From NCBI GenBank assembly GCA_001784435.1, contig MFQZ01000010.1:18917-82916 (forward strand): 64,000 nucleotides of DNA, read 5' to 3'. A model generated the notes under the pieces. It had not been told where the DNA came from. It saw only the letters and a list, made by a program, of their open reading frames with translations, and searched no databases. This DNA comes from Candidatus Magasanikbacteria bacterium RIFOXYC2_FULL_42_28. Its GTDB lineage: Bacteria > Patescibacteriota > Patescibacteriia > Magasanikbacterales > GWA2-37-8. Positions 1,339 through 54,340 of this stretch are shown piece by piece. Within the stretch, counting starts at the first letter, position 1. Each line of letters begins with the position of its first letter. Position numbers and translations under genes: made by a program.

Positions 1339-1345
1339 ATTTTAT

Positions 1346-1434
1346 TAGTTCATAAATAATAGTTCATAGCCAATAATACAGATGATAAATTACCGAATCG
1401 CTCTATTGGCTTTGAACTATTGGCTATGAACTAT
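1346..1434. repeat. short intergenic repeats of the GTTCATAGCCAATAG family (two copies in inverted orientation)
   Basis: tagttcataaataatagttcatagccaat at 1346-1377 and its reverse complement ctattggctttgaactattggctatgaactatc at 1403-1434. Same motif at 2118-2150, 9101-9131 and 28353-28370. Confidence 0.7.
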
Positions 1435-2643: not shown

Positions 2644-2647
2644 AAAT

Positions 2648-3121: not shown

Positions 3122-3122
3122 A

Positions 3123-4043
3123 TTAAATAGCGTTAAGAACGAGCGCCAGTAGGGCCTGGCGGGCGTATAAACCGTTTTCCGCTTGCTCAAAATAGTAGGC
3201 ATGCGGAGTTTTATCAACGGCGTAGTCAATTTCATTGACGCGTGGTAGAGGATGCAATATTCGCAAATTCTTTTTAGCATTTTTTAAGTCCGCGACTGTC
3301 AATCGATAAACATCCTTCACGCGGTTGTATTCCATTTGGTCGGGAAATCTTTCGCCTTGAATCCGGGTCATGTATAAAACATCCAATTTGGGAATTATGT
3401 TTTCAAAACTTTCGTGTACACTAAATTTAATTCCTTTTTCACGAAGTTCAGTTAATAAATATTCAGGCATGGCCAAACTTGGTGGCGCGATAAAATACAA
3501 GCGCGCATTAAAATGGGTGAGTGCTTGCGCGAGCGAGTGCACGGTTCGGCCGTATTTGAGGTCACCCATCATGGCAATTGATAAATTATTTAATTTTCCT
3601 TGGGTTTCTTTAATGGACATTAAGTCCAAAAGCGTTTGGGTTGGGTGTTGGTTGGCGCCATCGCCACCGTTAATTACCGGTTTATCAGTGGCTTCGGCCG
3701 CGCGTCTGGCGGCACCTTCAAGTGGGTGGCGCATCGCAACAACATCTACATATTGACCGACAATTTTTATTGAATCGTAAAGTGTTTCGCCTTTTTTTGC
3801 AGAAGTGACGCCAGCATCGGCAAAGCCAACTACTTTTCCGCCCAGTCGTTGCATGGCGGTTTCAAATGAAAGGCGAGTGCGGGTGGATGGCTCAAAAAAA
3901 CAACTGCCCATGACTTTACCGGCAAGCAAATTCGGTTGTGGTTTCTTTTTTAATTCCAGCGCGAGTTTGACTATGGAATTTATTTCTGCCGGTGTCAATT
4001 CGTTTATCGAAATGATGTCACGGCCTTTTAGGGTGGAGAACAT
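3123..4043 (-). CDS. pyrB: aspartate carbamoyltransferase catalytic subunit
   Basis: [13 protein letters not shown] and HPLP motifs. Start taken as [16 protein letters not shown] (ATG at 4041-4043). The upstream in-frame ATG at 4115 would read through a hairpin plus T-run leader. Confidence 0.85.
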
Positions 4044-4053
4044 AAATTTGTTT

Positions 4054-4079
4054 AAAAAAAGTCCCGACTGAGTCGGGAC
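4054..4079 (-). promoter_or_regulatory. leader hairpin GTCCCGACTGAGTCGGGAC followed by U7, 11 nt before the pyrB ATG (attenuator-like; copy of the TCCCGAC-TNA-GTCGGGA palindrome)
   Basis: Perfect palindrome at 4061-4079 and an A7 run at 4054-4060 on the plus strand (a U-run on the pyrB sense strand). A possible promoter TTGCAA-17-TACACT lies further upstream on the minus strand (about 4135-4165). Confidence 0.5.
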
Positions 4080-4368
4080 TAAATAATAAATAATGAAAAT
4101 GCCAATCTTTGGCATCGTGAATGGATGTAAAAAAGGTATTGATCATATCGGGATTAGTGTAGCATTTTTGGAGTTGGTTTGCAAATGGATTTTTGGGTTT
4201 ATCCACACCTTATCTTGACAATATTATATAATTATGGCACAATATAACTAAGAAAAAGGCTTTTGGCAGGGGTTTATATATCACAACGTCGAAGGTCTTT
4301 TTTTGTTTTTATTCTTAGCTTCCACAAGAAATTTACAAAGTTGTATTTTGTCAATCATATTTTTTTGT

Positions 4369-6819: not shown

Positions 6820-7524
6820 TTAAGTTAAAATTTGTTTTAGAAGCGCGGTGGCCTCTGCTTTCATTATACCAATTTTTGCGTTTCCGTTCAACTGGTGGAT
6901 GGCTGTGCCACGCTTTATAAAAATTTTTTTAAGTTCAGTCCCAAAAAATTGGCGGTGAGATTTTTTTAAAAATGGCAGGTTTTCAAAAATTACGTTATCT
7001 TGTTTTTGCGCTCGGCCGGATAATCTTTGGGCCGAAGTGGTCGGATTGGTTTTTACTAAAATTAAATGGTCAGGGCGATGGGTTAGCGCCAAATTATTCC
7101 CGGGCAGAGCCGATATTTTTTTCATGGTGAAATTTTTGTGGGCTAGCGATTGGTAGGCGAGCGAGGTGGAGATACCGCGGTCTTGGATAATTACTCGGCC
7201 GTCTTTAAGCAAAGGAATAATAATTTTGGTGTAGAGAATTAAACGATCGAGCGCGTAGGCCTCGGCCACGGCTTCAACCGGGTAGGTCGTGCCGTTTTTG
7301 ATAAGTTCATCTCGAATTACCGCGCCTACGCCGGCGTAAGTTGGCTCGGCCGAAAAAATAAAATCATAGCCGTTAAGTTCGGATAATTTTGGGTATTCTC
7401 CGGTTTTTTTTAAATATTCTTTTAAATCAAAAATCGCGTTGCCTTGAGCAACTAAATATTTTTTCCAAGTTTCAATAACAGTGCTTTTGCCAGAGCCGTC
7501 GATGCCGTCAATCAATATTAACAT
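6820..7524 (-). CDS. tmk: thymidylate kinase
   Basis: P-loop LILIDGIDGSGKST, and DRGISTSLAYQS matching the dTMP kinase DRYxxSSLAYQG lid motif. Confidence 0.75.
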   Translation of the reverse strand: MLILIDGIDGSGKSTVIETWKKYLVAQGNAIFDLKEYLKKTGEYPKLSELNGYDFIFSAEPTYAGVGAVIRDELIKNGTTYPVEAVAEAYALDRLILYTKIIIPLLKDGRVIIQDRGISTSLAYQSLAHKNFTMKKISALPGNNLALTHRPDHLILVKTNPTTSAQRLSGRAQKQDNVIFENLPFLKKSHRQFFGTELKKIFIKRGTAIHQLNGNAKIGIMKAEATALLKQILT

Positions 7525-7530
7525 ATTGAA

Positions 7531-7628
7531 AATTCTAAGTTCTAAACTCTAAATTCTAATCGATTTGAATTTGTAATTTTAATATTTGGGTTTGTTTAGA
7601 TTTTAGTATTTAGAGTTTAGAGTTTCTC
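7531..7628. repeat. palindromic heptamer-based spacer (TTTAGAG/TTCTAAA family), copy 1
   Basis: aattctaagttctaaactctaaattctaat ... tttgtttagattttagtatttagagtttagagttt: two arms built of 7-mer repeats in inverted orientation. It extends a few nt into the folA 3-prime end. Confidence 0.7.
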
Positions 7629-8092
7629 GTATATATCACAAAATCAAAACCAGCGTGTGGTTCGCGGGCAATTTCTTTCCAAAGCGCGGGATTAATTATT
7701 GGAAAGAAGGTGTCGCCATCCGGAGATTGGTGGACGTGAGTAATATATAATGTATCCACGCGGTCAATTGTTTGTTTGTAAATACTCGCGCCACCACAGA
7801 TAAATACATCTTCGTTTTTTAATTGCGCGAAAGCGTCATCAAGCGAATTAAAGACGCGTACGCCGTCTGGCACTTGGTAATCTTTGTTTAAAGTCAGCAC
7901 CACTGTTTTTCGTCCTGGCAATGGCTTGCCTAAGTATCCTAAAATTGATTCATAAGTGGCTTGTCCCATTAAACAAGTTTTTCCCAAAGTGGTTTTTTTA
8001 AAAAACGCAAAATCTTCCGGAATATTCCACGGGATTTTGTTGTTTTTGCCAATGCAGTTATTGTCGGCGACGGCGGAAATGAGAGAGAACAT
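7610..8092 (-). CDS. folA: dihydrofolate reductase
   Basis: MFSLISAVADNNCIGKNNKIPWNIPEDFAFFKKTTLGKTCLMGQATYESI is the canonical DHFR N-terminus. ATG at 8090-8092. The ORF-track extension MEIGNLDFEIIN is translation of repeat copy B. Confidence 0.9.
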   Translation of the reverse strand: MFSLISAVADNNCIGKNNKIPWNIPEDFAFFKKTTLGKTCLMGQATYESILGYLGKPLPGRKTVVLTLNKDYQVPDGVRVFNSLDDAFAQLKNEDVFICGGASIYKQTIDRVDTLYITHVHQSPDGDTFFPIINPALWKEIAREPHAGFDFVIYTRNSKL

Positions 8093-8097
8093 GTTGA

Positions 8098-8212
8098 TAA
8101 TTTCAAAATCCAAATTTCCAATTTCCAATCAATGTCAAAGCCAAAATGTCAAATTTGATATTTGTAATTTGGATTTGATTTGACATTGGATATTGGAAAT
8201 TTGACATTTATT
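8098..8212. repeat. palindromic MITE-like element, copy B (family P1)
   Basis: aaatttccaatttccaatcaatgtcaaagccaaaatgtcaaatttgata...tttgacattggatattggaaatttgacattt. Sits between the thyA stop and the folA start. Confidence 0.85.
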
Positions 8213-8221
8213 TAGTAAATT

Positions 8222-9094
8222 TTAAACAGCAATTGGGAATGAGATTTTAGGATGGCTCTGATAACTCATCAATTCCGTATCCCCATATTGCCAATCAAAA
8301 ATATTCGTGAATTTTTCGGTTTTAATCTGGGGCAGGGGATAGGTATTTGGGTCGCGGGTAAGTTGTTCGCGTACGCCGTCAACATGATTTAAATATATAT
8401 GGGCATCTGCCAAAAAGCCGACCAATTTTCCTTCTTTTAAATTACATTCTTTGGCTAGTAAATGTAAAAGCAAAGCATAGCTTGAAATATTAAACGGCAA
8501 ACCAAGCATCGTGTCTACCGAGCGTTGATTCCAGAGTAAATTTAGTCGGCCGTTGATTACCGTCACTTGAAAACCATAATGGCAGGGTGGCAGAGCCATT
8601 TCACCAATTTGACAGGGGTTCCAAGCCATCACAATCATCCGACGATCGCTCGGATTGGTTTTAATAGTTTCAATTAATTTTTTTAATTGGTCAACACCGG
8701 TATCAGCATAATTGGAATCAAAATTTTCGTAAGGCGCGTTAAAATGTCGCCATTGAAAACCGTAAATCGGACCCAAATCGCGTTCGGCTGCCATTTTTTG
8801 TTTGGTGGCTTCGTCGTGGGCGTAAGGTACTTTTTTAGGTGAGCACCATTCATCCCAAATATGGCAGTTTTTGGCTTTGAGCCACTCTTTGTCCGTCAGG
8901 CCTTTGATAAAAAACTCCAATTCCGCGGCCATTACTTTAAATGGCATTTTTTTGGTTGTTAAAAGCGGATAACCGGTCGCCATGTCATGTTCAAAATACG
9001 CGCCGGCAATCGCGAGCGTGCCGGTGCCGGTGCGGTCGGTTTTGGTTTCGCCTTTTTCCAAAACGGTTTTGACGATGTTTAAATAGGATTGCAT
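8222..9094 (-). CDS. thyA: thymidylate synthase (ThyA type)
   Basis: MQSYLNIVKTVLEKGETKTDRTGTGT, HLLAKECN and the long-insert ThyA form. ATG at 9092-9094. The upstream extension translates the GTTCATAGCCAATAG repeat. Confidence 0.9.
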   Translation of the reverse strand: MQSYLNIVKTVLEKGETKTDRTGTGTLAIAGAYFEHDMATGYPLLTTKKMPFKVMAAELEFFIKGLTDKEWLKAKNCHIWDEWCSPKKVPYAHDEATKQKMAAERDLGPIYGFQWRHFNAPYENFDSNYADTGVDQLKKLIETIKTNPSDRRMIVMAWNPCQIGEMALPPCHYGFQVTVINGRLNLLWNQRSVDTMLGLPFNISSYALLLHLLAKECNLKEGKLVGFLADAHIYLNHVDGVREQLTRDPNTYPLPQIKTEKFTNIFDWQYGDTELMSYQSHPKISFPIAV

Positions 9095-9100
9095 ATTTTT

Positions 9101-9131
9101 TAGTTCATAGCCAATAGTTCTTAGCCAATAG
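9101..9131. repeat. GTTCATAGCCAATAG-family repeat
   Basis: tagttcatagccaatagttcttagccaatag, immediately upstream of the thyA start. Confidence 0.7.
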
Positions 9132-9148
9132 GACAGCGACAAGTTTGT

Positions 9149-9571
9149 TTATTTTCCCGTACTGCCAAAACTGCCTAGTCCACGTTGGGCTTCGGTTAAT
9201 TCATTTACTTCTTGCAGTTCGGCAATAGCAACAGGATAAATTATCAGTTGGGCGATTTTGTGGCCGGTTTCAATTTTATATGGTTCTTGTCCTAAATTTA
9301 TTAGTTGCACATTGTATTCACCACGATAACCAGCATCAAATACCCCGCCCATCGTATGGATGCCGCCGTTTTTTGGCAATGAACTTTTATCTTTCACAAT
9401 CGCCGCGTAGCCGGTCTCAAATTCCAGAGCAAATCCGACAAAAAATATTTTTCTCTCGCCCGGTTGCAAATTATAATCTTCCAAAGAATATAAATCCATA
9501 CCCACATCGCCCGGGTGGGCATAAGTGGGGAGGATAGCGTCGGGTTTTAGCCGTTTAATTTTAATTTGCAT
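9149..9571 (-). CDS. dut: dUTP diphosphatase
   Basis: AHPGDVGMDLYS and GGVFDAGYRGE dUTPase motifs. 140 aa. Confidence 0.85.
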   Translation of the reverse strand: MQIKIKRLKPDAILPTYAHPGDVGMDLYSLEDYNLQPGERKIFFVGFALEFETGYAAIVKDKSSLPKNGGIHTMGGVFDAGYRGEYNVQLINLGQEPYKIETGHKIAQLIIYPVAIAELQEVNELTEAQRGLGSFGSTGK

Positions 9572-10115
9572 ATTTTTTAACCAATGCGTCCAGCTGGGCG
9601 TGTAAATTTTCCATGGTGCCGTTATTATTGATGTGTTCGATCGCGTACTTTACCACGTCTAAAATACTTAATTCCGTAGAGCGTTTGTGGTCTTCTAAAA
9701 ATTGTTCGTAAGTTTTGGTGTTGTCGTCTGAATTTTCACCACGTTTTATCAGTCGCTCGTAGCGAGTTTCTGGTTCGGCAAAAATTTCTATTAAGACAAA
9801 ATTTGGTAATTGTGATAAATATTCAATATCAGCCATTCGACGGATTCCTTCCACCACCACTAAATTATTGGTAGCGGCTTGCGCGTCGCCGGCAATGGCT
9901 TTGGCCAAGGTATTTTCACCAAAAGTTGTGCGGATACATTCCGACATTTTAATCAAAAAATCACGCGATTGTTCCAGATAAATGCGATTTAGCAGGTCGC
10001 GCAAAATTGTGGAATAGCGGAAAGTATCGGCTTGATATTTTGTTTCTAAATATTTTGCCACCGTGCCCTTACCGCTTGATAGTAATCCGGTAAATCCTAA
10101 AATTATTTTATTCAT
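9561..10115 (-). CDS. P-loop nucleotide kinase, possibly a deoxynucleoside monophosphate kinase
   Basis: N-terminal Walker A ILGFTGLLSSGKGT, about 184 aa. It resembles T4 gp1-type dNMP kinases and sits inside the dTMP synthesis cluster. Specificity not established. Confidence 0.45.
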   Translation of the reverse strand: MNKIILGFTGLLSSGKGTVAKYLETKYQADTFRYSTILRDLLNRIYLEQSRDFLIKMSECIRTTFGENTLAKAIAGDAQAATNNLVVVEGIRRMADIEYLSQLPNFVLIEIFAEPETRYERLIKRGENSDDNTKTYEQFLEDHKRSTELSILDVVKYAIEHINNNGTMENLHAQLDALVKKYAN

Positions 10116-10121
10116 AAATTT

Positions 10122-10592
10122 TCACTTAGCCCAATCCGATACATACTGCCGGCATTTAATCCCGGCGGCGTCAAATAACCGACGGGCGGCGGTAAATGCG
10201 TCCACGTCGTGGTATTTATCACTTTCATAAATCACTTCTACTACCCCGTTTTGAATAATGGTTTTGGCGCACTCATTGCAGGGGAATAAGCAGGAATAAA
10301 CACGCCCGCCTTTGACTGACATGTTGGCGTTGTAAATCGCGTTTTCTTCGGCGTGGCACATATAGGCGTACTTGGTGTTCAAAAACGCGCCTTCACGCTC
10401 CCAAGGCAATTGATCAGCCTCAATACCGCGCGGGAAGCCGTTATAGCCCATACCTAAAACGACGTTATTTTTATCTACGACTATCGAGCCGACTTGTGAG
10501 GAAGGGTCCTTGGAGCGCTCGGCAATCACATGCGTCATGCGCATAAAACATTCGTCCCAGGAGATCGTATTTTCGCGAGGAGTAATAGGCAT
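10122..10592 (-). CDS. dCMP deaminase (cytidine/deoxycytidylate deaminase zinc-binding family)
   Basis: HAEENAI ... CLFPCNECAK zinc-ligand pattern. 156 aa. Confidence 0.8.
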   Translation of the reverse strand: MPITPRENTISWDECFMRMTHVIAERSKDPSSQVGSIVVDKNNVVLGMGYNGFPRGIEADQLPWEREGAFLNTKYAYMCHAEENAIYNANMSVKGGRVYSCLFPCNECAKTIIQNGVVEVIYESDKYHDVDAFTAARRLFDAAGIKCRQYVSDWAK

Positions 10593-10627: not shown

Positions 10628-10660
10628 AAAACCGCGCCTTGGGCAAGGGGCGGTTTTAAG
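10628..10660 (-). terminator. intrinsic terminator after the PEP-utilizing-domain gene
   Basis: Minus-strand hairpin CCGCCCCTTG/CAAGGCGCGG followed by TTTTTTG. Confidence 0.6.
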
Positions 10661-10672
10661 TTGATAAATTTG

Positions 10673-11800
10673 TCAATGTTGTTGTAATATTTTTACAAAA
10701 CCTTTGTTGGCGTCTACTTCGATCATTTGGCCAGTCTTAATTTTTTTGGTAGCACCCTTAACACGTATTAGGGATGGCTTATTCAATTCTCTGCAAATTA
10801 TCGCCGCATGGCACAAGATTGTTCCTCGTTCCATAATTATTGCCCCTGCTTTTTTTATATATGGAATATATTCTAAAGTTGGCATGGTGCAAACCAAAAT
10901 TTCGCCTTTTTGGAATGATGGTACTTTCGTCCCGTTTACTATTCGAGCTTTTCCGATATATTTTCCGCTATTAGCAGATATGCCCTTGATTATCTTTGCT
11001 GGCTTTTTGCGGGTAAGAATGGTTGCTTTAGTGGCTTGCCAGATATCAAATTTCGCCAGGGTTCTGCCCTGAATGCGATTGTAATCGATGAATCTTATTT
11101 TATCCCCCGGCCAGACCATAAATTCAAAATAACCGCGTAGGTATTTGCGACTGTTAAAAGACGAACCCAATTGTTCTTTCAGTTGGCTGCGAGTTTTAGC
11201 ATGGGTAACTTTTAATGCCTGTACGGCCTTTTTTATAATTTTGATCGCGTATTTGTTATGTTTAGAAAAAATCCAGTTAGTGAAATTACTTGAAAAAAAG
11301 ATCGGCATTTTTTGACAATTCCCGATGCTAAGGCCACTAAGTCGTCCTTCGTTAATTTCTCCCCAAATGCCGTTGTTATTGATAATAAAAATAGCGGATA
11401 GTTTAATAATTTTAGAGCGAGGTCGTATTTCTACCCAATACTTATCTTCATCTAATTTTTTGTTTTTAAGCCAATTAATTGCATTATGAGTATTACGCCC
11501 GCTTAGCCGCAACTTTGGCAATCTTTGGTTTTTTGGTATGGCACGCAACATACACTGTTGGTTGCCCATATTGTTTACGGTATCTTTAAATAATGGTGTG
11601 CGTTCGTTGATGTCGCGCAGTGTCATTTTTTCTGGTTTGTCATAGGGTAAATTTATGAGTATATGCAATAAATCTAGACGATGACGTTTGGAGTTGTCTT
11701 CTATAAGCATACGTCTGCCGTTCGGTACTTGAATTTTTTTTAGCCATTCCGTAAACGGCGGCCAGGCATTTTTTTGAAGTTTTTGGTTGGAGTAAATCAT
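10673..11800 (-). CDS. PEP-utilizing enzyme mobile (phosphohistidine) domain protein with an uncharacterised roughly 230-aa N-terminal region
   Basis: C-terminal GTILCHAAIICRELNKPSLIRV matches the GGxTSHAAIxAREluP phosphohistidine motif of PPDK, PEP synthase and Bacillus-type pyruvate kinase. The start lies 3 nt after the pyk stop. Confidence 0.65.
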   Translation of the reverse strand: MIYSNQKLQKNAWPPFTEWLKKIQVPNGRRMLIEDNSKRHRLDLLHILINLPYDKPEKMTLRDINERTPLFKDTVNNMGNQQCMLRAIPKNQRLPKLRLSGRNTHNAINWLKNKKLDEDKYWVEIRPRSKIIKLSAIFIINNNGIWGEINEGRLSGLSIGNCQKMPIFFSSNFTNWIFSKHNKYAIKIIKKAVQALKVTHAKTRSQLKEQLGSSFNSRKYLRGYFEFMVWPGDKIRFIDYNRIQGRTLAKFDIWQATKATILTRKKPAKIIKGISANSGKYIGKARIVNGTKVPSFQKGEILVCTMPTLEYIPYIKKAGAIIMERGTILCHAAIICRELNKPSLIRVKGATKKIKTGQMIEVDANKGFVKILQQH

Positions 11801-11803
11801 AGC

Positions 11804-12850
11804 TTAATTGGTAACAGTAAGATGATTGGCCAATTTTGCTTGGTATTTTTCCACTTCATTAATAATTTTTTTGGCAGTTGCAATGGTATAAGCGGCTCGC
11901 TTGTTCAGTCCAGTTTCATAGCCAAAAATTATTCCGGCGGCACCGTCTAGTACAATGTTGGTTAAGTCGCAGATATCCGCGCGGGTAGGTATATAGTTAT
12001 GAATGGTGCTGGCCAGAATGTGGGTAGATATTAGAATTGGTTTAGAAAATTTTTTAGCGCGAGACATTATCTGTTTTTGCAGTAAGCCGATTTTTTCAAA
12101 TGGCATGTTGACGCCCATCTCTCCGCGATCGATCAGTATCATATCAAAAAAATTATCTTGACAAATAGCGTTGAGTTCTTCGGCAGTAATATTTTTTTCT
12201 ATTTTTATGATGTATTTGAGTCGATTAGTTTTAGGTGGAAATAGCAGTTTTATTTTTTCGATAAACGATTTGCTAATATATGAACAAGCGAGATAGTCGG
12301 GGTGCAGACCGTTAATTTGCTCCAAAGTTTTTTTATAAATTTCAACCATGTAATCTTCGTCATAGATAGCGTAGTTATTACCCAAATTTACAGTTTTGGA
12401 ATTTCTTATGATGCCACTATTGATTATTTGGATTTTTACGATATCAGACGATATGATGTCTTTTATTTGTACTGTAACTTCCCCGTCTCCGATTGCAATT
12501 ATTTGCCCCAGCGATACTTTTGAGCCGATGTGCGGGATATTTAATGGTATGAATTCAAGACAATCCGGAGAGTAATCAGCGGAACGTAAGATAAGTTCGC
12601 TCCCTTCTTGTACCGGGAAAGTCTGACCTTCAAAAAATCCTAGGCGATGTTTATTAAGTGGAAAATCAATAAATTTTTTAACGGACGCATTTAAACTATC
12701 GATAACCTTTTCCGCTTTTTGAACCGATTCGATGTAGTTGTCGATGGAACGGTGAGACAAATTAAATCGCAATACATCCGCTCCGGTTAGGATCATTTTA
12801 ATTATTTGTTCTTCGGTAATGTTGTGACCGACAGAAGCAATTATCAACAT
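11804..12850 (-). CDS. pyk: pyruvate kinase, short form (no C-terminal allosteric domain)
   Basis: IIASVGHNITEEQIIKMILTGADVLRFNLSH ... MILIDRGEMGVNMPFEKIGLLQKQI ... PTRADICDLTNIVLDGAAGIIFGYETG matches the PK catalytic-core signatures. 348 aa. Confidence 0.8.
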   Translation of the reverse strand: MLIIASVGHNITEEQIIKMILTGADVLRFNLSHRSIDNYIESVQKAEKVIDSLNASVKKFIDFPLNKHRLGFFEGQTFPVQEGSELILRSADYSPDCLEFIPLNIPHIGSKVSLGQIIAIGDGEVTVQIKDIISSDIVKIQIINSGIIRNSKTVNLGNNYAIYDEDYMVEIYKKTLEQINGLHPDYLACSYISKSFIEKIKLLFPPKTNRLKYIIKIEKNITAEELNAICQDNFFDMILIDRGEMGVNMPFEKIGLLQKQIMSRAKKFSKPILISTHILASTIHNYIPTRADICDLTNIVLDGAAGIIFGYETGLNKRAAYTIATAKKIINEVEKYQAKLANHLTVTN

Positions 12851-12861
12851 AACACGCTAAG

Positions 12862-12893
12862 TTTAAAAACCTCTGCCGAAAAGCAGAGGTCTT
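12862..12893. terminator. bidirectional intrinsic terminator (CCTCTGC-loop-GCAGAGG with T-runs on both sides) downstream of rplA
   Basis: aaaaacctctgccgaaaagcagaggtctttt. Confidence 0.65.
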
Positions 12894-12897: not shown

Positions 12898-13578
12898 TTA
12901 ACTGTTAGTGGCGACTTTTATCGCCGGTCCCATCGAAGAGCACAAGGTCAAGCTTTGCAGATAGGATCCCTTTATTCCATCTGGCTTGGCCTTGTTTAAA
13001 GCGTCCAGAAAGGCCGTTAAGTTTTCTTTGAGCTGAGCTTCCGTAAAACTGACTCGCCCGACCAATTGGTGGACATTGGCTCCGTCATCATTTTTGAAAG
13101 TAACTTTGCCTTTTTTTAATTCTTCAATCATTTTTTTCAAGTTCGGGCCGACCGTTTCGGTTTTGGGATTAGGCATCAAGCCCTTCGGGCCCAACACTTT
13201 CGCGGCCATGGCCAATTTCGCCATCATGTCCGGCGTGGTAACAGCAATTTCAAAATTAATTTTGCCAGTGTCTTTAATTTTTTTAATATCTTCTTCACCG
13301 TAAACAAAATCCGCGCCGGCTTCTTTGGCTTCTTTTTCTCTTTCCGGAGAGACGAACGCGGCGACGGTTTTAGTTTTACCAGTGCCGTGGGGTAATACCA
13401 CAGTAGCGCGTACCTGTTGTTCGCCTTTTTTAACGTCAATCCCCAAGTGGGCGTGGACTTCAATACCGGCGTCAAATTTGACTCCGGATGTTTCGCGGGC
13501 GAGCTTAATGGCTTCGTCCAACGGGTAAACCTTGTTTTTTTCCACCTTGGAAGCAAGGCCTTTCATTCTTTTTCCCAT
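12898..13578 (-). CDS. rplA: 50S ribosomal protein L1
   Basis: MGKRMKGLASKVEKNKVYPLDEAIKLARETSGVKFDAGIEVHAHLGID. Full-length L1, standing alone with no rplK next to it. Confidence 0.9.
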   Translation of the reverse strand: MGKRMKGLASKVEKNKVYPLDEAIKLARETSGVKFDAGIEVHAHLGIDVKKGEQQVRATVVLPHGTGKTKTVAAFVSPEREKEAKEAGADFVYGEEDIKKIKDTGKINFEIAVTTPDMMAKLAMAAKVLGPKGLMPNPKTETVGPNLKKMIEELKKGKVTFKNDDGANVHQLVGRVSFTEAQLKENLTAFLDALNKAKPDGIKGSYLQSLTLCSSMGPAIKVATNS

Positions 13579-13794: not shown

Positions 13795-15930
13795 ATGGCT
13801 GATAAATTTAAACATATAATTTTTAATCCGCGCGTGCGATTGTGTTTGGGTATTTTTGTGTTTATGGCCGTGCTCGGTTGGGTCTATTCCGGGCAGTGGC
13901 AAGTTTGGCGTAATCCGGATTTTCCGCCGAAAGTGGAAACGGCCAAGGCCGCCACTTGGTATAACGCCAGTTGGTCGTATCGCAAAACTGTTACGATTGA
14001 TTATACGAAAGTTTCTACCACTTTGTCTAATTTTCCAGTGATGGTGAGTACTACCGATAGCAATTTATCATCTTACGCGTCTTCTACTGGCGCGGATATT
14101 TTGTTTACATCTGACGATGGCACTACCAAACTTAATCACGAAATTGAAAGTTATACGAGTGCAACCGGGAAATTAATTGCTTGGGTAAATGTGACGAGCT
14201 TGTCTAATTCGGCGAATACTGTTCTTTATATGTATTATGGCAATACGGGGGCAGCGGATCAGCAAAATATTACCGGGACGTGGGATTCAAATTATGTGGG
14301 CGTATGGCACATGAAAGAAAATCCGTCCGGTTCGGCGCCCCAGATGAAAGATAGCACGACTAATGCCAATCATGGCACTACTCAAGGTTCAATGCCTTCC
14401 GGATCCTTGGTAAACGCGCAGATTGGCGATGGTTTGGATTTTAATGGTTCCAGTTATTATGTCTCTCTTCCGGTTACATCCTCGCTTAATATCACCGGGG
14501 CGATTACTGTTGAGACCTGGGTTTACGCGGATGCTCTTTCGTCGGCTAGAAGGTTTGTGTCTAAAAACAACACCGTAACCAAATCTTGGGAACTTAATTT
14601 TGAATCAGCTGTTGGTGGTTTAACTACCATGAGAGTTTTTGATGGCGGAACAATAAAACGTACGCAAGAAGCGGCAGCAATGACGGTCGGATCTTGGTTC
14701 CATTATGTCGGTGTATTTGATCCCAGCACTGCCGTGATAATTTATAAAAACGGCTCACAAAGCGGAGCTCTAACTTCCGGAATTCCGGCAGCGCAGAACG
14801 ACAATCCCAATATCGCGGTATTATTTGCTCGCAGTCCCTATGCTGGCTGTGTAAATTGTTATTTAGATGGCAAAATGGATGAAGTGCGCGTTTCCAATGT
14901 GGCCCGCTCCGCCGGTTGGATTTTAACCGAATATAACAATCAATATTCACCGTCGACCTTTTATAGTATAGAAAGTACAGCACAAACCCCGCCGTTTTTT
15001 GATCAAATTTATTATAAATTTTTTAATAATGCCGATTCTACTGATGTGGGCTTAAAATTGGCGAATCAAAATTTACCAGCTACTTTATCGGCCACCGGCG
15101 ACCCGTTCCGTTTGCGCTTGGGTTTACACGTCACCGGTAGTCAAATTGACGCGAGTGGCCAAAGTTTTAAATTACAGTTTGCGGAAAAATCAGGGGATTG
15201 CGATGGCGTTTTTTCCGGTGAAAGTTATGCTGATGTAACCGGAGCGACTGCAATTGCGTATTATGATAATGCCACCCCTAATGATGGTGATAGTTTGACT
15301 ATAAACGCGGGCGACCCAAATATTGGTAATAATGTGATTGAACAGACATATGAAGAGGCCAATAATTTTACCAATTCTGTGGGCGCGATTGCAGTCGGTG
15401 AAGAGGGTTTGTGGGATTTTTCTTTATACGATAATGGCGCGCCGGCCGATACCTCGTATTGTTTGCGGGTGATTAAATCAGATGGTAATAATATTGATAG
15501 TTATACCGAAATACCGGAAATAATTACTGCATCGGGCGCGTCACCAGTGGTGTCGGTCTCGGTCCAAGACGGAATTATTAGTTATGGCTATCTGTCAGCC
15601 GGTTCCAGTACCACCACAATTGCTATTGGCGATTCTCAAACTGTCACCAATAATGGTAATGTGGATATAGATTTGGGCATAAAAGGTTCAACATCTACGC
15701 CTGGCAATTGGACATTGGCTTCGCAAGTAGGCCCCGATCAATATGTTCATGAATATTCAGTTGATGTCGGTGATACTTGGGTGCCACTTACTGCCGATTA
15801 TCAACTTTTGGTTCCCGGAGTGCCGCCAGATGCCGGTGGTGTTATTGATTTCCGAATTCAAGTGCCAAGTTCAACTTCGGATTATAGTACGCAAAATGTT
15901 GATGTTACTATTTTGGCGATTCAATCATAG
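13795..15930 (+). CDS. large secreted/surface protein: N-terminal signal-anchor, DUF2341-like and LamG/concanavalin-like regions, and a C-terminal roughly 130-aa beta-domain paralogous to the next gene
   Basis: WYNASWSYRKTVTIDYTKV...ADILFTSDDGTTKLNHEIESY is DUF2341-like. VETWVYADALSSARRFVSKN is LamG-like. C-terminal IKGSTSTPGNWTLASQVGPDQY aligns with the 16025..16531 protein. Confidence 0.6.
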   Translation: MADKFKHIIFNPRVRLCLGIFVFMAVLGWVYSGQWQVWRNPDFPPKVETAKAATWYNASWSYRKTVTIDYTKVSTTLSNFPVMVSTTDSNLSSYASSTGADILFTSDDGTTKLNHEIESYTSATGKLIAWVNVTSLSNSANTVLYMYYGNTGAADQQNITGTWDSNYVGVWHMKENPSGSAPQMKDSTTNANHGTTQGSMPSGSLVNAQIGDGLDFNGSSYYVSLPVTSSLNITGAITVETWVYADALSSARRFVSKNNTVTKSWELNFESAVGGLTTMRVFDGGTIKRTQEAAAMTVGSWFHYVGVFDPSTAVIIYKNGSQSGALTSGIPAAQNDNPNIAVLFARSPYAGCVNCYLDGKMDEVRVSNVARSAGWILTEYNNQYSPSTFYSIESTAQTPPFFDQIYYKFFNNADSTDVGLKLANQNLPATLSATGDPFRLRLGLHVTGSQIDASGQSFKLQFAEKSGDCDGVFSGESYADVTGATAIAYYDNATPNDGDSLTINAGDPNIGNNVIEQTYEEANNFTNSVGAIAVGEEGLWDFSLYDNGAPADTSYCLRVIKSDGNNIDSYTEIPEIITASGASPVVSVSVQDGIISYGYLSAGSSTTTIAIGDSQTVTNNGNVDIDLGIKGSTSTPGNWTLASQVGPDQYVHEYSVDVGDTWVPLTADYQLLVPGVPPDAGGVIDFRIQVPSSTSDYSTQNVDVTILAIQS

Positions 15931-16024
15931 TAGCGCTGTGGATAAGTATGCCTGCGGGAGGGGGTTGGAGATAAAAAAGTTATGTGGTATAATATAGTTG
16001 TTAATTTGTTTAAATTTATTTTTT

Positions 16025-16531
16025 ATGAAAAATAAAAAACTGGATTTGGTAATCGGGGTTTTATTTGTGGTTGCGCTCGCGTTCGGGGTGTCGGCGCAGG
16101 GGGCTGATACCGGTACGGTAACGGCCACGGTAACAGTGCAAAATGTTTCGGTTACAGTGACTGACGGTGCGGTTGATTATGGTACGATGACGGTTAGTGA
16201 TACTGCAGACACTTTATCTGGCGATTTAAACGATCCTCAATACGCTGTTAATAGTGGTAATGTGGCGGAAACTTTAAATATAAAAGGGTCTACTTCAACG
16301 CCAGGTGATTGGACTTTGGCTGGGAGCGTCGGAGCGAATACCTATAAACACGCGTTTTCTACCAGCACCGATCCTAATTGGGTGGCAATGTCTGTTAACT
16401 ATCAAACCGTTACAACTACTTTGGCCGTCGCCGCCACCTCTACTCTGTACCTTCAGTTGAGCACGCCGTCTAGTGTTAGCAGTTATGTGGCCAACAATGT
16501 TGACTTAACCGTACAAGCGGTTGCCAACTAG
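16025..16531 (+). CDS. small secreted protein, paralogue of the C-terminal domain of the preceding giant protein (WxL-like beta domain with a WTL motif)
   Basis: Signal peptide MKNKKLDLVIGVLFVVALAFGVSAQGA. NIKGSTSTPGDWTLAGSVGANTYKH aligns with the C-terminus of the 13795..15930 protein. Thr/Ser/Val-rich. Confidence 0.6.
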   Translation: MKNKKLDLVIGVLFVVALAFGVSAQGADTGTVTATVTVQNVSVTVTDGAVDYGTMTVSDTADTLSGDLNDPQYAVNSGNVAETLNIKGSTSTPGDWTLAGSVGANTYKHAFSTSTDPNWVAMSVNYQTVTTTLAVAATSTLYLQLSTPSSVSSYVANNVDLTVQAVAN

Positions 16532-16557
16532 TTTTAAATGGTTGTTAAAATAAAGAT

Positions 16558-17148
16558 ATGCGGAAATTTATTTTTCTGATATTGATTTGTCTTCTGGCAA
16601 CGCCACTTTTAGTTTCCGCGCGTATTGGAGTGGGTGTGGGATCTGGTAAAATTGAGGTAAAAGAAAAATTAAAACCTGGTCAGTCCTATGATTTGCCGAT
16701 TTTACCAGTTATTAATAATGGTGATGAATTAACAGAATACGAAGTGACAATTGAATATCATGAGGGCGTTCCCGAATTGCGTCCGGCGCGAGAATGGATT
16801 GAATTTACCCCGCGGACATTTTCTTTAGAACCGGGTCAGGTTAAAAATGTTAAAGTAGAATTGAATTTGCCGGTGAAGGCCGAACCCGGTAATTACTTTG
16901 CGTATTTAGAAGGTCATCCGCTGAAGAAAAGTATTGGCACCGGTGGAGCGGCGGTGGGAATCGCGGCCGCGGCTAAAATGTATTTTACCGTCGTGCCCGC
17001 CAATATTTTTGCCGCTTGGTATTATAAATTGAGCACCTGGTATGGCCATTATCACCCGTTTAACACAGCCGTACTTGGCTTATTAGCGTTTATTTTTGTA
17101 GTATATTGGGTAAAAAAGAATTTTAAATTTCAGATTGCGAAGAAATGA
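16558..17148 (+). CDS. secreted protein with a C-terminal transmembrane anchor
   Basis: N-terminal signal peptide and C-terminal TM VLGLLAFIFVVYWVKKNF. Its position after the paired WxL-like proteins parallels the DUF916/CscA slot of Firmicute Csc loci; this parallel is an inference. Confidence 0.5.
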   Translation: MRKFIFLILICLLATPLLVSARIGVGVGSGKIEVKEKLKPGQSYDLPILPVINNGDELTEYEVTIEYHEGVPELRPAREWIEFTPRTFSLEPGQVKNVKVELNLPVKAEPGNYFAYLEGHPLKKSIGTGGAAVGIAAAAKMYFTVVPANIFAAWYYKLSTWYGHYHPFNTAVLGLLAFIFVVYWVKKNFKFQIAKK

Positions 17149-17161
17149 TTTACTGTTCGTC

Positions 17162-18232
17162 ATGAAAAAAGTACTTGGCAAAATTATTTTATTCTCTCTC
17201 CCCCTACTGGTTATTTCATTAGGGGCTTTTTTTTCTTATTCGGATTTTGTTATTGCCGCTTCTACCGCTTCGGTTAGCGCGACAATTAAAATAGAAATTT
17301 GCGGTGATAGTGTAAAAGATGATGGTGAAGAGTGTGATGGTAGTGATTTGAACGGTCAGTCCTGTACTAATTTTAGTGGATTTACCGGTGGAACATTATC
17401 CTGCTCGGCCGGATGCTTATTTGTTACAACCGGTTGCACAACAGCTGTTACTCCGCCAGGTGGCGGTGGGGGAGGTGGTGGCGGTGGTGGCGGTGGGCCA
17501 ATCACGCCCGTAATCACGAGCGCGGTATTTGTAGGGCGCGCTTATCCGGGCAGTTCAGTGACACTTTTAAAAGATGGTCAACTGGCCGTGCGCACCGTGG
17601 CCGGGCCGGACGCTAATTTTCAAATGACTTTGGCCGGACTGTCCGCCGGAAATTATATTTTTTCGCTTTATACTACCGATAGTGTTGGCCGACAATCGTC
17701 AGCTTTGACTTTTCCGGTGTATGTTACGAGCGGGGCCACCACGCGCGTGTCCGGAATTTTTTTAGCGCCGACCATTGCGGCTGATAAAAGTGAAGTGAAA
17801 CATGGCGACACCCTGTCTATTTTTGGCCAGTCTTTACCGCAAAGCGAAATTACGGTACAAGTGAATTCCACGCAAGAATTTTTTGCTAAAGCCAGAGCCG
17901 ACAAAGACGGTGTGTATTTATATAATTTAGATACGGCATTTTTGGAAATCGGCGATCATAGCGCGCGTTCCAAATCCACGGTGGAAAATGAAATTAGTGC
18001 TTACAGTGATCGGGTGGCTTTTAAAGTTGGGACCAAATCAGTGAATGAAGTGGTGGATACAACTTATAAAAAAGCGGACTTAAACCGTGATGGTAGTATT
18101 AATTTGGTGGATTTTTCCGTGGCCGCATATTGGTATAAACGGAAGTCGCCGCCGACGAAGTATGATTTAAATAATGATGGTAAGATTGATTTGGTGGATT
18201 TTAGTATTATGGCGTATTATTGGACAGGATAA
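17162..18232 (+). CDS. dockerin-domain surface protein (Cys-rich N-terminal repeat, Gly13 linker, Ig-like modules, C-terminal dockerin)
   Basis: Dockerin calcium-binding repeats DLNRDGSINLVDFSVAAY and DLNNDGKIDLVDFSIMAYYW. CGDSVKDDGEECDGSD is a Myxococcus-type Cys-rich repeat. PPGGGGGGGGGGGGGP is the linker. Start taken at MKKVLGKIILF (ATG at 17162). Confidence 0.7.
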   Translation: MKKVLGKIILFSLPLLVISLGAFFSYSDFVIAASTASVSATIKIEICGDSVKDDGEECDGSDLNGQSCTNFSGFTGGTLSCSAGCLFVTTGCTTAVTPPGGGGGGGGGGGGGPITPVITSAVFVGRAYPGSSVTLLKDGQLAVRTVAGPDANFQMTLAGLSAGNYIFSLYTTDSVGRQSSALTFPVYVTSGATTRVSGIFLAPTIAADKSEVKHGDTLSIFGQSLPQSEITVQVNSTQEFFAKARADKDGVYLYNLDTAFLEIGDHSARSKSTVENEISAYSDRVAFKVGTKSVNEVVDTTYKKADLNRDGSINLVDFSVAAYWYKRKSPPTKYDLNNDGKIDLVDFSIMAYYWTG

Positions 18233-18309
18233 CGACGAAAGATTGAAGAATAAAGATTAAAGATTGCGAATTATTTTTTGTTAATCTTCAATCTTTAATC
18301 TTTAATAAT

Positions 18310-19188
18310 GTGTATTTGTCTAAATTTAAAAATTTAATTATTATCGCATTAGTTTTTGTGTTATTTCCGAATGTAGCATTTGCCGCATCGTTATATTTTA
18401 ATTCTCCTAAAACCGATTACACCGTCGGCGAGCAATTTACCGCCAGTGTTTTGGTGGATTCAGTTAGCGAGCCGATTAACGCGTTTGAGGGTAAATTGGT
18501 TTTTTCTGATGATCAGTTGGAGGTGAAAGAAATTTTTATCGGTAATTCTATTATAAATTTTTGGCTGGACGCGCCTAAGGCCGATAAGGGTGAGATCAGA
18601 TTTTCCGGCATTGTGCCGGGCGGGTTTCAAGGTGATAATGGGTTATTGTTTTCGGCAGTATTTAGGGTTTTGTCAACGGGGTCAGGAGCAATAAAATTTT
18701 CGGATTATAAATTATTATTAAATGATGGACTCGGAACAATGGCCGTAACCACGGTGGCTAATTTAAATTTAACTATTAAACCGCTCGCTATTGGCGCGAG
18801 CGCGCCCGACTATTTACCATTTCCCGATGGCACTTTGCCCGAAGAATTTACACCGGAATTGACGCGCTCGCCGGAAGAATTTGGCAATCAATGGTTTTTA
18901 GTTTTTGCGACTCAAGACAAGGGTTCGGGCATTGATTACTACGAGGTGTGTGAAGGTAGCCAAGATAATTGCGAAAAAACCGACAGCCCGTATATTTTAA
19001 AAGACCAAAATTTAGTTGGTAAAATTTTTGTAAAAGCGGTTGATAAGCGTGGCAACGGTCGTTTGGTTGTTTTAGAGCCGCCGGGCGGTTTGGTGTGGTA
19101 TGAAAAATACCAAAATTATGTTATAATATTATTAGTATCAATTGCTTCTATTTTGTTAGTCCTCAAAAAATATGCGCGGAGGGTTTAA
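18310..19188 (+). CDS. cohesin-like domain protein with a C-terminal TM anchor
   Basis: Signal peptide. AASLYFNSPKTDYTVGEQFTASVLVDSVSEPINAFEGKLVFSDDQLEV...GEIRFSGIV...GLLFSAVFRVLSTGSGAIKF fits the cohesin consensus. C-terminal TM VIILLVSIASILLVL. Confidence 0.6.
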   Translation: MYLSKFKNLIIIALVFVLFPNVAFAASLYFNSPKTDYTVGEQFTASVLVDSVSEPINAFEGKLVFSDDQLEVKEIFIGNSIINFWLDAPKADKGEIRFSGIVPGGFQGDNGLLFSAVFRVLSTGSGAIKFSDYKLLLNDGLGTMAVTTVANLNLTIKPLAIGASAPDYLPFPDGTLPEEFTPELTRSPEEFGNQWFLVFATQDKGSGIDYYEVCEGSQDNCEKTDSPYILKDQNLVGKIFVKAVDKRGNGRLVVLEPPGGLVWYEKYQNYVIILLVSIASILLVLKKYARRV

Positions 19189-25368: not shown

Positions 25369-25478
25369 AATGTCAAATTTCCAATTTCCAATGTCAAATC
25401 AAATCCAAAGCCAAAATATCAAATTTGACATTTGACATTGTCTTGGAAATTGGGAATTTGGATTTTGAAATTATCATT
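25369..25478. repeat. palindromic MITE-like element, copy C (family P1), ending exactly at the pilB ATG
   Basis: aatgtcaaatttccaatttccaatgtcaaatcaaatccaaagccaaaatatcaaatttgacatttgacattgtcttggaaattgggaatttggattttgaaattatcatt. Confidence 0.85.
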
Positions 25479-54193: not shown

Positions 54194-54195
54194 TG

Positions 54196-54279: not shown

Positions 54280-54340
54280 TAATATTCACAAATTATACTA
54301 TTTCTTTGCCACTTTGTCAACAATATGGTATAATATGGCC

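What the first reader, a model, noticed from the sequence alone, without database searches (positions are those of the whole stretch)
10673..12850. Split Bacillus-type pyruvate kinase: truncated PK core translationally coupled to a separate PEP-utilizing-domain protein with a novel N-terminal region
The pyk gene (348 aa) ends after the catalytic A domain and lacks the C-terminal allosteric domain. Three nucleotides later begins a 375-aa protein whose last roughly 130 aa are a phosphohistidine PEP-utilizing mobile domain (GTILCHAAIICRELNKP). Bacillus and Geobacillus PKs carry this extra PEPut domain fused at the C-terminus. Here it is on a separate polypeptide behind an uncharacterised 230-aa region, which suggests a two-subunit kinase or a phosphotransfer partner that could link PEP status to another process.
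Basis: partly seen in the sequence, partly recalled or inferred. Interest (0 to 1): 0.5.

Follow-up and report, generated by a model that had tools for sequence, protein, structure and literature searches.

The report
PK-like barrel paired with phosphohistidine carrier
Two tightly coupled genes in a candidate-phyla-radiation bacterium encode a stripped-down, active-site-altered pyruvate-kinase-like barrel and a protein that looks like the first two domains of PEP synthase. Together they are probably an undescribed two-part phosphate relay next to the cell's DNA-precursor genes, not a broken Bacillus-type pyruvate kinase.

Summary
**Observation: confirmed.** On the minus strand, a 348-aa PK-barrel protein (11804-12850, no C-domain) is followed after 3 nt by a 375-aa protein (10673-11800). 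The second protein ends in a PEP-utilizer swivel domain with His331.

**Interpretation: only partly right.**
- The short PK is not a split gene. It is the normal form of a Magasanikbacteria family of about 340 aa.
- No member of that family keeps the canonical Mg-ligand Asp. The motif is DRGE[ML]G or NRGKLG.
- The family scores far below NCBIfam pyruvate-kinase cut-offs.
- It sits in conserved synteny directly upstream of a dTTP-synthesis cluster.
- The "novel" N-terminal region has an ATP-grasp fold with no sequence-level match. The whole 375-aa protein is collinear with the nucleotide-binding and swivel domains of PPDK and PEP synthase.

**Linkage.**
- The pair recurs in 14 further loci, with gaps of -14 to +14 nt, and once as a single fused ORF.
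- 24 of 36 species-level loci have the PK-like gene alone.
- Elsewhere in CPR and DPANN the same module is fused to a canonical PPDK_N domain.

**Best reading (about 0.45).** A two-component phosphohistidine relay running PEP/pyruvate (PK-like barrel), then His331, then the ATP-grasp-like site, with a nucleotide as the likely co-substrate.

**Status.** Uncharacterised. I class it as a new variant of the dikinase / PEP-utilising kind.

The parts
11804..12850 (-). PK-like barrel protein, 348 aa. It has A and B domains and no C-terminal allosteric domain. The active site is non-canonical (DRGEMG: the Mg-ligand Asp is replaced by Glu244, and there is a new invariant Asp241).
   Evidence: PF00224 at 150 bits. 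NCBIfam PK models score 100-169 bits against cut-offs of 306-686. It aligns to M. tuberculosis and Plasmodium PKs at E about 1e-29. Active-site table.
11801..11803 (-). 3-nt spacer (GCT) between the PK-like stop codon (TAA) and the ATG of the next gene. This is compatible with translational coupling.
   Evidence: Sequence read directly. Gaps in the 14 other pairs are -14 to +14 nt.
11015..11800 (-). Domain X (aa 1-262) of the 375-aa protein. It is an ATP-grasp-like fold with no Pfam or PDB sequence match. Conserved polar residues: E34, D35, K38, R41, R86, R98, E148, Y224, E226, D239, N241, R242.
10676..10999 (-). Phosphohistidine swivel domain (aa 268-375; PF00391 at aa 296-367).
10808..10810 (-). 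Codon of His331 (CAT), the predicted phospho-carrier histidine. It is invariant in the family.
   Evidence: Aligned with the conserved His of PEP synthase 8a8e. Invariant in alignment A1. Codon position read.
12869..12890 (.). GC-rich hairpin with T-runs on both strands, lying between rplA and the PK-like gene. It is a terminator-like boundary.
10635..10652 (.). Hairpin followed by TTTTTT on the minus strand, just after the 375-aa gene. It is a terminator-like boundary of the two-gene unit.
6820..10592 (-). Context: the conserved downstream pyrimidine deoxynucleotide cluster. Members are dCMP deaminase (10122-10592), a PRK08356-like P-loop kinase (9561-10115), dUTPase (9149-9571), ThyA (8222-9142), DHFR (7610-8128) and Tmk (6820-7524).
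   Evidence: Pfam and NCBIfam. Most of this gene order recurs downstream of the PK-like gene in about 30 of the 36 Magasanikbacteria loci; the rest are mostly cut short or rearranged.

Best explanation
**What the proteins are.**
- The 348-aa protein is the native form of a Magasanikbacteria-specific member of the pyruvate-kinase family. It has A and B domains, no allosteric C domain, and a remodelled metal site.
- The 375-aa protein is collinear with the first two domains of PEP synthase and PPDK. It has a sequence-orphan ATP-grasp-like domain (X) followed by a swivel domain carrying His331.

**Proposed mechanism.** The two form a two-component phosphohistidine relay.
1. The PK-like barrel exchanges a phosphoryl group between PEP/pyruvate and His331.
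2. The swivel domain carries the phosphate to or from the conserved Arg/Lys/Glu/Asp site of domain X.
3. A nucleotide is the most likely co-substrate at that site.

In effect this would be a split PPDK/PEP-synthase-like enzyme built on a PK barrel instead of a PEP-utilizers_C barrel. The likely physiological direction is from PEP to nucleotide, feeding the adjacent dNTP pathway.

**Shown.**
- Domain identities and folds.
- Gene coupling, recurrence and one fusion.
- Interchangeability of the PK-like barrel and PPDK_N as neighbours of the X-swivel module.

**Inferred.**
- Physical interaction between the two proteins.
- His331 phosphorylation by the PK-like barrel.
- The nucleotide substrate and the direction of transfer.
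For: 2. **Phosphotransfer-type site in X.** Over 120 representatives the conserved polar residues are K38, R41, R86, R98, R100, E148, E226 (100%), D239, N241 and R242. His331 is invariant.
3. **Coupling.** There are 15 ordered pairs with gaps of -14 to +14 nt. One natural fusion, P0290/L055, lies in the same synteny and has no in-frame start codon in its linker. Hairpins bound the pair.
4. **Co-inheritance.** The tree of the copy next to PK (c1) is broadly congruent with the PK-like tree.
5. **Modularity.** 18 longer family members carry a canonical PPDK_N upstream of X-swivel: 12 as PPDK_N-X-swivel and 6 with two to six swivel modules. One locus has PPDK_N as a separate upstream gene. No PPDK_N ORF exists in the 64-kb window or in any Magasanikbacteria locus. 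The PK-like barrel is therefore the only candidate phospho-donor or acceptor module in cis.
6. **Altered PK-like active site.** No family member keeps the canonical Asp295. L021, L022 and L048, all with partners, have also lost the Lys269 and Arg119 equivalents. This argues against a purely classical ADP-dependent PK.
7. **Recurrent nucleotide context.**
   - The dTTP cluster.
   - CYTH, deoxyribosyltransferase-like, phosphopentomutase-like, dCTP deaminase and PRTase genes.
   - PfkB, PNP, PRTase and AdoHcyase arrays.
   - NUDIX neighbours and an NTPase_I-T fusion.
   - YfbR-like HD and NUDIX genes.
8. **Precedent for two-component swivel dikinases.** HpeHI is one (PMC12167813).
Against: - 24 of 36 species-level loci have the PK-like gene with no X-swivel gene within 8 kb. 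The PK-like protein must therefore have a partner-independent role, or the partner is encoded elsewhere; this was not testable.
- The X-swivel family occurs without any PK-like gene in other lineages.
- The AF2 model of the natural fusion folds every domain (pLDDT 88) but has pTM of only 0.55. No confident PK/X-swivel interface was obtained. The MSA was unpaired and no PAE was available.
- I know of no PK-family barrel shown to phosphorylate a swivel histidine. The retained B (lid) domain could hinder access.
- Domain X has no detectable sequence homology to PPDK_N (hhalign probability 0.4%). Nucleotide binding rests on fold and conserved charges only.
- Conserved synteny within one class-level lineage may partly be inheritance; rplA is equally conserved next to the pair.
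Confidence: 0.45

Rival explanations
1. Same complex, opposite direction: a split PEP synthase. Domain X binds ATP and loads His331. The PK-like barrel binds pyruvate and receives the phosphate to make PEP.
For: - The order ATP-grasp then swivel is that of PPS and PPDK.
- The swivel domain's best matches are PPS.
- The PK and PEP-utilizers_C barrels belong to the same PEP/pyruvate barrel superfamily (from my own knowledge, not tested here).
Against: - In other lineages a bona fide PPDK_N sits upstream of X-swivel, and one PPDK_N can serve up to six swivel modules. X would then be redundant as the ATP site.
- No gluconeogenic context was seen. The pair sits by a dNTP cluster.
Confidence: 0.15
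2. Functionally independent neighbours. The PK-like protein is the lineage's PEP-dependent (d)NDP kinase or pyruvate kinase, completing dTMP to dTDP to dTTP. The X-swivel protein is a separate dikinase subunit whose partner is encoded elsewhere.
For: - The PK-like gene is retained directly upstream of the dTTP cluster in 24 loci without the partner.
- PKs phosphorylate all (d)NDPs and replace Ndk in mycoplasmas (PMC6609329, citing Pollack 2002).
- In the window copy most PK catalytic residues are present.
- X-swivel works with other partners elsewhere.
Against: - The pair shows tight, ordered coupling in 15 loci, one fusion, and congruent trees.
- The canonical Mg-ligand Asp is absent from the whole family. 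It is replaced by Lys in the large partner-less clade, together with K269R, N74S, D112N and T327S. This is hard to reconcile with classical PK chemistry.
- No alternative donor module lies within 64 kb.
Confidence: 0.25
3. Regulatory module. The swivel protein senses PEP or nucleotide status and modulates the PK-like enzyme. This would resemble the fused PEPut domain of B. subtilis PykA, which inhibits catalysis and links PK to replication.
For: - PEPut regulates PykA activity by up to 16-fold through the TSH motif and the Cat-PEPut contact (PMC9009071).
Against: - There is no TSH motif; the sequence is LCH or LSH.
- A 260-aa domain with a conserved catalytic-looking site is more than a sensor needs.
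- The same module is fused to PPDK_N in multi-module enzymes.
Confidence: 0.1

Closest known systems
Pyruvate phosphate dikinase / PEP synthase (PPDK_N ATP-grasp, PEP-utilizers swivel, PEP-utilizers_C barrel)
   Same: - The 375-aa protein is structurally collinear with domains 1-2 (Foldseek 1kbl, 1dik, 2ols).
- The conserved swivel His aligns.
- A PEP/pyruvate-type barrel is encoded alongside.
   Different: - The barrel is a PK-family barrel with a B domain, on a separate polypeptide and encoded upstream. It is not PEP-utilizers_C.
- The ATP-grasp domain has no sequence match to PF01326.
- The protein is 375 aa, against about 800-870 aa.
Two-component small-molecule dikinase HpeHI and rifampin phosphotransferase (RPH)
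   Same: - A swivel-His protein works with a separately encoded or fused partner domain (PMC12167813, PMC4844700).
- Relatives of the 375-aa protein are fused behind a PPDK_N domain in the RPH order of donor, middle domain, swivel.
   Different: - In this window the partner is a PK-like barrel, which implies PEP rather than ATP.
Bacillus/Geobacillus pyruvate kinase with C-terminal PEPut domain (PykA)
   Different: - In PykA the PEPut domain follows a complete A/B/C PK on one chain and carries TSH.
- Here there is no C domain in any family member, the proteins are separate, an ATP-grasp-like domain precedes the swivel, the motif is LCH, and the swivel is closer to PPS.
Canonical pyruvate kinase acting as nucleoside-diphosphate kinase (mycoplasmas, apicoplast PyKII)
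   Same: A PK-family enzyme is placed where an NDP to NTP step is needed, directly upstream of the dCMP deaminase/dUTPase/ThyA/DHFR/Tmk cluster. PK phosphorylates all (d)NDPs (PMC6609329).
   Different: - There is no C domain.
- The Mg-ligand Asp is replaced by Glu or Lys.
- The protein scores below the NCBIfam PK cut-offs.

Membership tests
Pyruvate kinase (EC 2.7.1.40; TIGR01064/PF00224+PF02887) | PK barrel (A and B domains), PF00224 | tested here: met
   PF00224, E=1e-43, 150 bits, aa 3-313. Aligns to PK structures at E about 1e-29.
Pyruvate kinase (EC 2.7.1.40; TIGR01064/PF00224+PF02887) | C-terminal alpha/beta (allosteric) domain, PF02887 | tested here: not met
   No hit was found. The protein ends about 35 aa after the barrel. 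All 98 relatives also lack it; the full-length ones are about 320-360 aa.
Pyruvate kinase (EC 2.7.1.40; TIGR01064/PF00224+PF02887) | Score above the curated equivalog cut-off | tested here: not met
   TIGR01064 scores 168.6 bits against a cut-off of 306.4. The other PK models score 37-169 bits against cut-offs of 432-686.
Pyruvate kinase (EC 2.7.1.40; TIGR01064/PF00224+PF02887) | Catalytic constellation R72, N74, S76, D112, R119, K269, E271, D295, T327, E363 (rabbit numbering, mapped from motifs I know) | tested here: not met
   The window copy keeps R, N, S, D, R, K, E, T and E. D295 is Glu244 in the motif DRGEMG. No family member has Asp there: it is Glu or Lys. Some members also lose K269 and R119.
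Pyruvate kinase (EC 2.7.1.40; TIGR01064/PF00224+PF02887) | PEP + ADP to pyruvate + ATP activity | not testable with these tools
   Needs an enzyme assay.
Bacillus-type PK with fused PEPut domain | PEPut domain fused after a complete PK (A/B/C), with a TSH motif | tested here: not met
   The polypeptides are separate, there is no C domain, and the motif is LCH. The Geobacillus PK extra C-terminal domain matches at only 33 bits, against 61 bits for PPS.
PEP synthase / PPDK (dikinase) | Swivel phosphohistidine domain PF00391 with the conserved His | tested here: met
   PF00391 at 68.7 bits. His331 aligns with the conserved His of PPS 8a8e.
PEP synthase / PPDK (dikinase) | N-terminal PPDK_N ATP-grasp domain (PF01326) | tested here: inconclusive
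   No sequence or profile match was found. The fold is ATP-grasp and is collinear with the PPDK/PPS nucleotide-binding domain.
PEP synthase / PPDK (dikinase) | C-terminal PEP-utilizers_C TIM barrel (PF02896) on the same chain | tested here: not met
   It is absent; the protein ends with the swivel domain. A PK-family barrel is encoded upstream instead.
RPH / HpeHI-type small-molecule dikinases | Canonical PPDK_N ATP-grasp component, fused or adjacent | tested here: not met
   There is no PPDK_N ORF in the 64-kb window or in any Magasanikbacteria locus. It is present in relatives from other lineages.
RPH / HpeHI-type small-molecule dikinases | RIF-binding-domain-like acceptor domain preceding the swivel | tested here: not met
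   Domain X matches ATP-grasp domains (9goj HpeI, 5hv6_B RPH-AD, Ddl, PurK), not the RIF-binding domain. PMC4844700 describes the RIF-binding domain as a distinct fold with no structural homologues.

The most novel reading that the evidence does not exclude
CPR and DPANN organisms may possess a modular, histidine-relay nucleotide-phosphorylating system. In this reading each ATP-grasp-like X domain binds a particular (deoxy)nucleoside mono- or diphosphate. Its own swivel His delivers phosphate taken either from PEP through a PK-derived barrel (Magasanikbacteria) or from ATP through a PPDK_N domain (other lineages, with up to six modules per donor). The system would run the PPDK/PPS nucleotide half-reaction in reverse, converting NMP to NTP. 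That would bypass or supplement NMP kinases and Ndk in minimal genomes. It would also mean the gene routinely annotated as glycolytic pyruvate kinase in Magasanikbacteria is not one.
Probability: 0.2. Interest if true: 0.85.

Novelty: new variant of a known kind. Interest (0 to 1): 0.6.

Why it matters
- **A new hybrid, if the relay is real.** It would be the first case of a pyruvate-kinase-family barrel serving as the PEP/pyruvate module of a swivel-histidine enzyme. That is a hybrid between two textbook ways of handling PEP.
- **An uncharacterised family.** It would define a compact family with about 260 clusters at 50% identity among 1.8 billion representative proteins. The family has no Pfam model for its main domain and was found in CPR bacteria and at least one archaeal-type locus, probably DPANN.
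- **Annotation.** Metabolic reconstructions of Magasanikbacteria count this gene as pyruvate kinase, the ATP-yielding last step of glycolysis. The missing C domain, the replaced Mg ligand and the fixed position next to dTTP-synthesis genes all suggest that annotation needs testing.
- **Nucleotide supply in minimal genomes.** The module's repeated association with nucleotide-salvage genes points to an unrecognised route of nucleotide phosphorylation in organisms with minimal genomes.

Tried and rejected
- **Sequence homology of domain X to PPDK_N.** My by-eye motif matching (GxGE loop, E...N-R) was not supported. hhalign of a 120-sequence X profile against a 12-sequence PPDK_N profile gave probability 0.4%. 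A2 against P0108 gave 0.7%. Profile searches of PDB and Pfam were empty.
- **JGI name for P0101.** The name "swiveling domain / nucleoside diphosphate kinase" was not borne out. Pfam finds only PF00391.
- **Complex modelling.**
  - A first unpaired MSA was misaligned by MAFFT.
  - A corrected unpaired MSA around the natural fusion gave well-folded domains but pTM 0.55. This is inconclusive about an interface.
- **Database scans.** The genome and metagenome scans first failed because the alignments were too divergent. They were repeated with narrower alignments.
- **Literature.** Searches found no description of this pair or family in CPR.
- **Rfam.** The only hit in the window is the tRNA. There is no riboswitch near the pair.
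- **Context of P0230.** The neighbourhood of this PPDK_N-X-swivel fusion is not nucleotide-related, so the nucleotide association is recurrent but not universal.
- **Not tested.** Whether the genome also carries a canonical pyk, ndk, ppsA or ppdK. Only 64 kb of the contig was available.
Full report
**1. Observation**

The window comes from a Candidatus Magasanikbacteria (CPR) genome: the 375-aa protein is 100% identical to a RIFOXYC2_FULL_42 protein.

The minus strand carries, in order:
- rplA (12898-13578)
- a hairpin
- a 348-aa ORF (11804-12850)
- a 3-nt spacer
- a 375-aa ORF (10673-11800)
- a hairpin followed by a T-run
- dCMP deaminase, a P-loop kinase, dUTPase, ThyA, DHFR and Tmk

Pfam finds only the PK barrel in the first protein, with no PK_C domain. 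It finds only the PEP-utilizers swivel domain, at aa 296-367, in the second.

**2. The "truncated PK" is a native, non-canonical family**

- All 98 relatives lack a C domain. The full-length ones are about 320-360 aa, three shorter entries look partial, and where a source names the organism they are Patescibacteria.
- Every NCBIfam pyruvate-kinase model scores far below its curated cut-off. TIGR01064, for example, scores 169 bits against a cut-off of 306.
- I mapped the standard PK catalytic motifs onto 40 family members.
  - No member has the canonical Mg-ligand Asp of the ARGDLG motif.
  - The clade containing the window has DRGE[ML]G.
  - A large sister clade has NRGKLG, together with N74S, D112N, K269R and T327S.
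  - Three members that do have downstream partners (L021, L022, L048) have lost the equivalents of catalytic Lys269 and Arg119.
- The window copy keeps R28, N30, S32, D62, R69, K216, E218, T276 and E312, so PEP/pyruvate chemistry remains plausible. Classical pyruvate kinase is not established.

**3. The 375-aa protein**

- A 14-sequence alignment gave a confident AF2 model, with pLDDT 87 and pTM 0.84.
- Foldseek independently ranks PPDK first (1kbl, E 5.6e-11). Its alignments to PPDK and PPS (2ols) span 327-525 columns and so cover both domains. It also lists Ddl, MdnC, PurK and PurD at E about 1e-4.
- The protein is therefore collinear with the nucleotide-binding and swivel domains of PPDK and PPS.
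- At the sequence level domain X is an orphan. It has no Pfam or PDB profile hit, and hhalign against PPDK_N gives probability 0.4%.
- Over 120 representatives the conserved polar residues are E34, D35, K38, R41, R86, R98, R100, E148, Y224, E226, D239, N241 and R242. This looks like a phosphate/metal-binding constellation. His331 is invariant.

**4. Linkage to the PK-like gene**

- A species-level genome scan returned 36 PK-like loci, most titled Magasanikbacteria or unclassified MAGs. My HMM scan found an X-swivel gene immediately downstream, as one or two tandem copies, in 10 to 12 of them and none within 8 kb in 24.
- Adding metagenome loci gives 15 ordered pairs with gaps of -14 to +14 nt.
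- One representative, P0290 (729 aa), is a PK::X-swivel fusion. Its locus L055 has the same synteny, and its linker has no in-frame ATG, GTG or TTG.
- The tree of the PK-adjacent copy (c1) is broadly congruent with the PK-like tree. A second paralogue clade (c2) is closer to relatives from other lineages.
- The order rplA, PK-like, [0-2 X-swivel], dCMP deaminase, P-loop kinase, dUTPase, ThyA, DHFR, Tmk recurs, in whole or in large part, in about 30 of the 36 loci.
- Occasional insertions in that cluster are CYTH, deoxyribosyltransferase-like, phosphopentomutase-like, dCTP deaminase or PRTase genes.
- The window also carries pyrB, pyrI and a dihydroorotase-like gene further along the same strand.

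**5. The wider family**

- A profile of domain X finds only 260 cluster representatives in 1.84 billion proteins.
- Of the longer members:
  - 18 have a canonical PPDK_N upstream of X-swivel. Twelve are PPDK_N-X-swivel and six have two, three or six swivel modules behind one PPDK_N.
  - One has the PK barrel.
  - One has NTPase_I-T plus a methyltransferase.
  - One has X-X-swivel.
- Separate-gene contexts include:
  - PPDK_N + X-swivel (L002)
  - PfkB + X-swivel + AdoHcyase (L005)
  - PRTase-PNP-PfkB followed by four swivel proteins (L008)
  - methyltransferase/TatD (L001, L010)
  - NUDIX (L059)
- No PPDK_N ORF occurs in the window or in any Magasanikbacteria locus.
- The X-swivel unit is therefore the constant module. 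The PK-like barrel occupies the position that PPDK_N holds elsewhere.

**6. Mechanism**

- The most economical reading is a two-component phosphohistidine relay: PEP/pyruvate at the PK-like barrel, His331 as carrier, and the ATP-grasp-like site as the second active site.
- A nucleotide is the likely co-substrate, based on the ATP-grasp fold, the conserved charges and the recurrent nucleotide contexts.
- The direction of transfer cannot be decided computationally: PEP to nucleotide, or a PPS-like transfer from nucleotide to PEP.
- The main counter-evidence is this:
  - The PK-like gene persists alone in two thirds of species loci.
  - An AF2 model of the natural fusion folds all domains (pLDDT 88) but gives pTM 0.55, so no confident interface. 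The MSA was unpaired and no PAE was available.
- A partner-independent role for the PK-like protein as a PEP-dependent (d)NDP kinase fits its position. It also fits the known NDP-kinase activity of PKs in ndk-less mycoplasmas (PMC6609329). It fits poorly with the Asp-to-Lys clade.

**7. Comparison with known systems**

- The pair works like PPDK/PPS, and like the two-component dikinase HpeHI (PMC12167813) and RPH (PMC4844700).
- It fails membership tests for each of them:
  - no PF01326 match
  - no PEP-utilizers_C barrel
  - no RIF-binding-type domain
  - no C domain and no canonical metal ligand for PK
  - no fused TSH-bearing PEPut as in B. subtilis PykA (PMC9009071)
- Literature searches found no description of this pair.

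**8. Verdict**

- "Split Bacillus-type PK" is rejected.
- "Phosphotransfer partner" is plausible and now has a concrete architecture.
- I class it as a new variant of the dikinase / PEP-utilising kind.
- Interest is about 0.6, and it is directly testable by simple phosphotransfer assays.

Noticed in passing
L025-L029, L031-L034, L036-L040, L046 (PK-like genes at about 8001-9020 in most of these loci): A large clade of the PK-like family has Lys in place of the canonical Mg-ligand Asp (NRGKLG). It also has K269R, N74S, D112N and T327S. This clade has no X-swivel neighbour, yet it keeps the same position directly upstream of the dTTP cluster. Classical pyruvate-kinase chemistry seems unlikely there.
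   Followed up: partly
L021, L022, L048 (PK-like genes): These PK-like proteins have one or two X-swivel partners. They have lost the equivalents of catalytic Lys269 (now Asn) and Arg119 (now Ser, Ala or Cys).
   Followed up: partly
L008/L009 1-8568 (Buchananbacteria-type contig): The gene order is PRTase, PNP, PfkB, then 337-aa, 354-aa, 320-aa (no Pfam hit), 313-aa and 373-aa genes, then AdoHcyase. Four different swivel-domain proteins lie in tandem beside purine-salvage genes, and only the last has the X domain of this family. The 320-aa orphan among them could be a missing donor module.
   Followed up: no
P0285 / L058 6001-13947; also P0225, P0227, P0228, P0255: These are giant multi-module proteins with one PPDK_N followed by two, three or six [domain + swivel] modules. 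For P0285 the locus does not translate to the protein under table 11. That suggests an alternative genetic code or a gene-calling artefact.
   Followed up: partly
P0222 / L059 5456-8211: This is an archaeal-type locus, probably DPANN, with tRNA intron endonuclease, XPG/FEN1 and TYW2 genes. A NUDIX gene overlaps the start of a fusion of NTPase_I-T (DUF84), a methyltransferase, domain X and the swivel domain. A small methyltransferase also overlaps the start of the X-swivel gene in L001.
   Followed up: partly
window 9561-10115 (-): A PRK08356-like P-loop kinase (AAA_17, 68 bits, below its cut-off) is conserved in every dTTP cluster between dCMP deaminase and dUTPase. Its 3' end overlaps the start of the dUTPase gene by 11 nt. 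Its substrate is unknown; it is presumably a (d)NMP kinase.
   Followed up: no
window 391-4115 (-): Pyrimidine de novo genes lie on the same strand. They are a second carbamoyltransferase (391-1338), a dihydroorotase-like amidohydrolase (1417-2643), PyrI (2648-3280) and PyrB (3123-4115). The longest pyrI ORF overlaps pyrB by about 160 nt, so the PyrI start is probably further downstream.
   Followed up: no
window 13795-20914 (+) and 25425-27197 (+): A divergently transcribed cluster encodes large secreted or surface proteins. These include LamG + DUF2341 (711 aa), two small Thr/Ser-rich proteins with no Pfam hit, and dockerin/EF-hand, Big and cohesin-like proteins. A T2SSE-type ATPase follows. 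The cluster may be a CPR surface or pilus apparatus.
   Followed up: no
window 54195-54279 (-): tRNA-Leu(CAA) is the only RNA gene detected in the window. It is overlapped by the 5' end of the mechanical ORF 54221-55126 (+), whose true start is probably downstream.
   Followed up: no
P0219 (624 aa): One family member has two tandem X domains before a single swivel domain (X-X-swivel).
   Followed up: no
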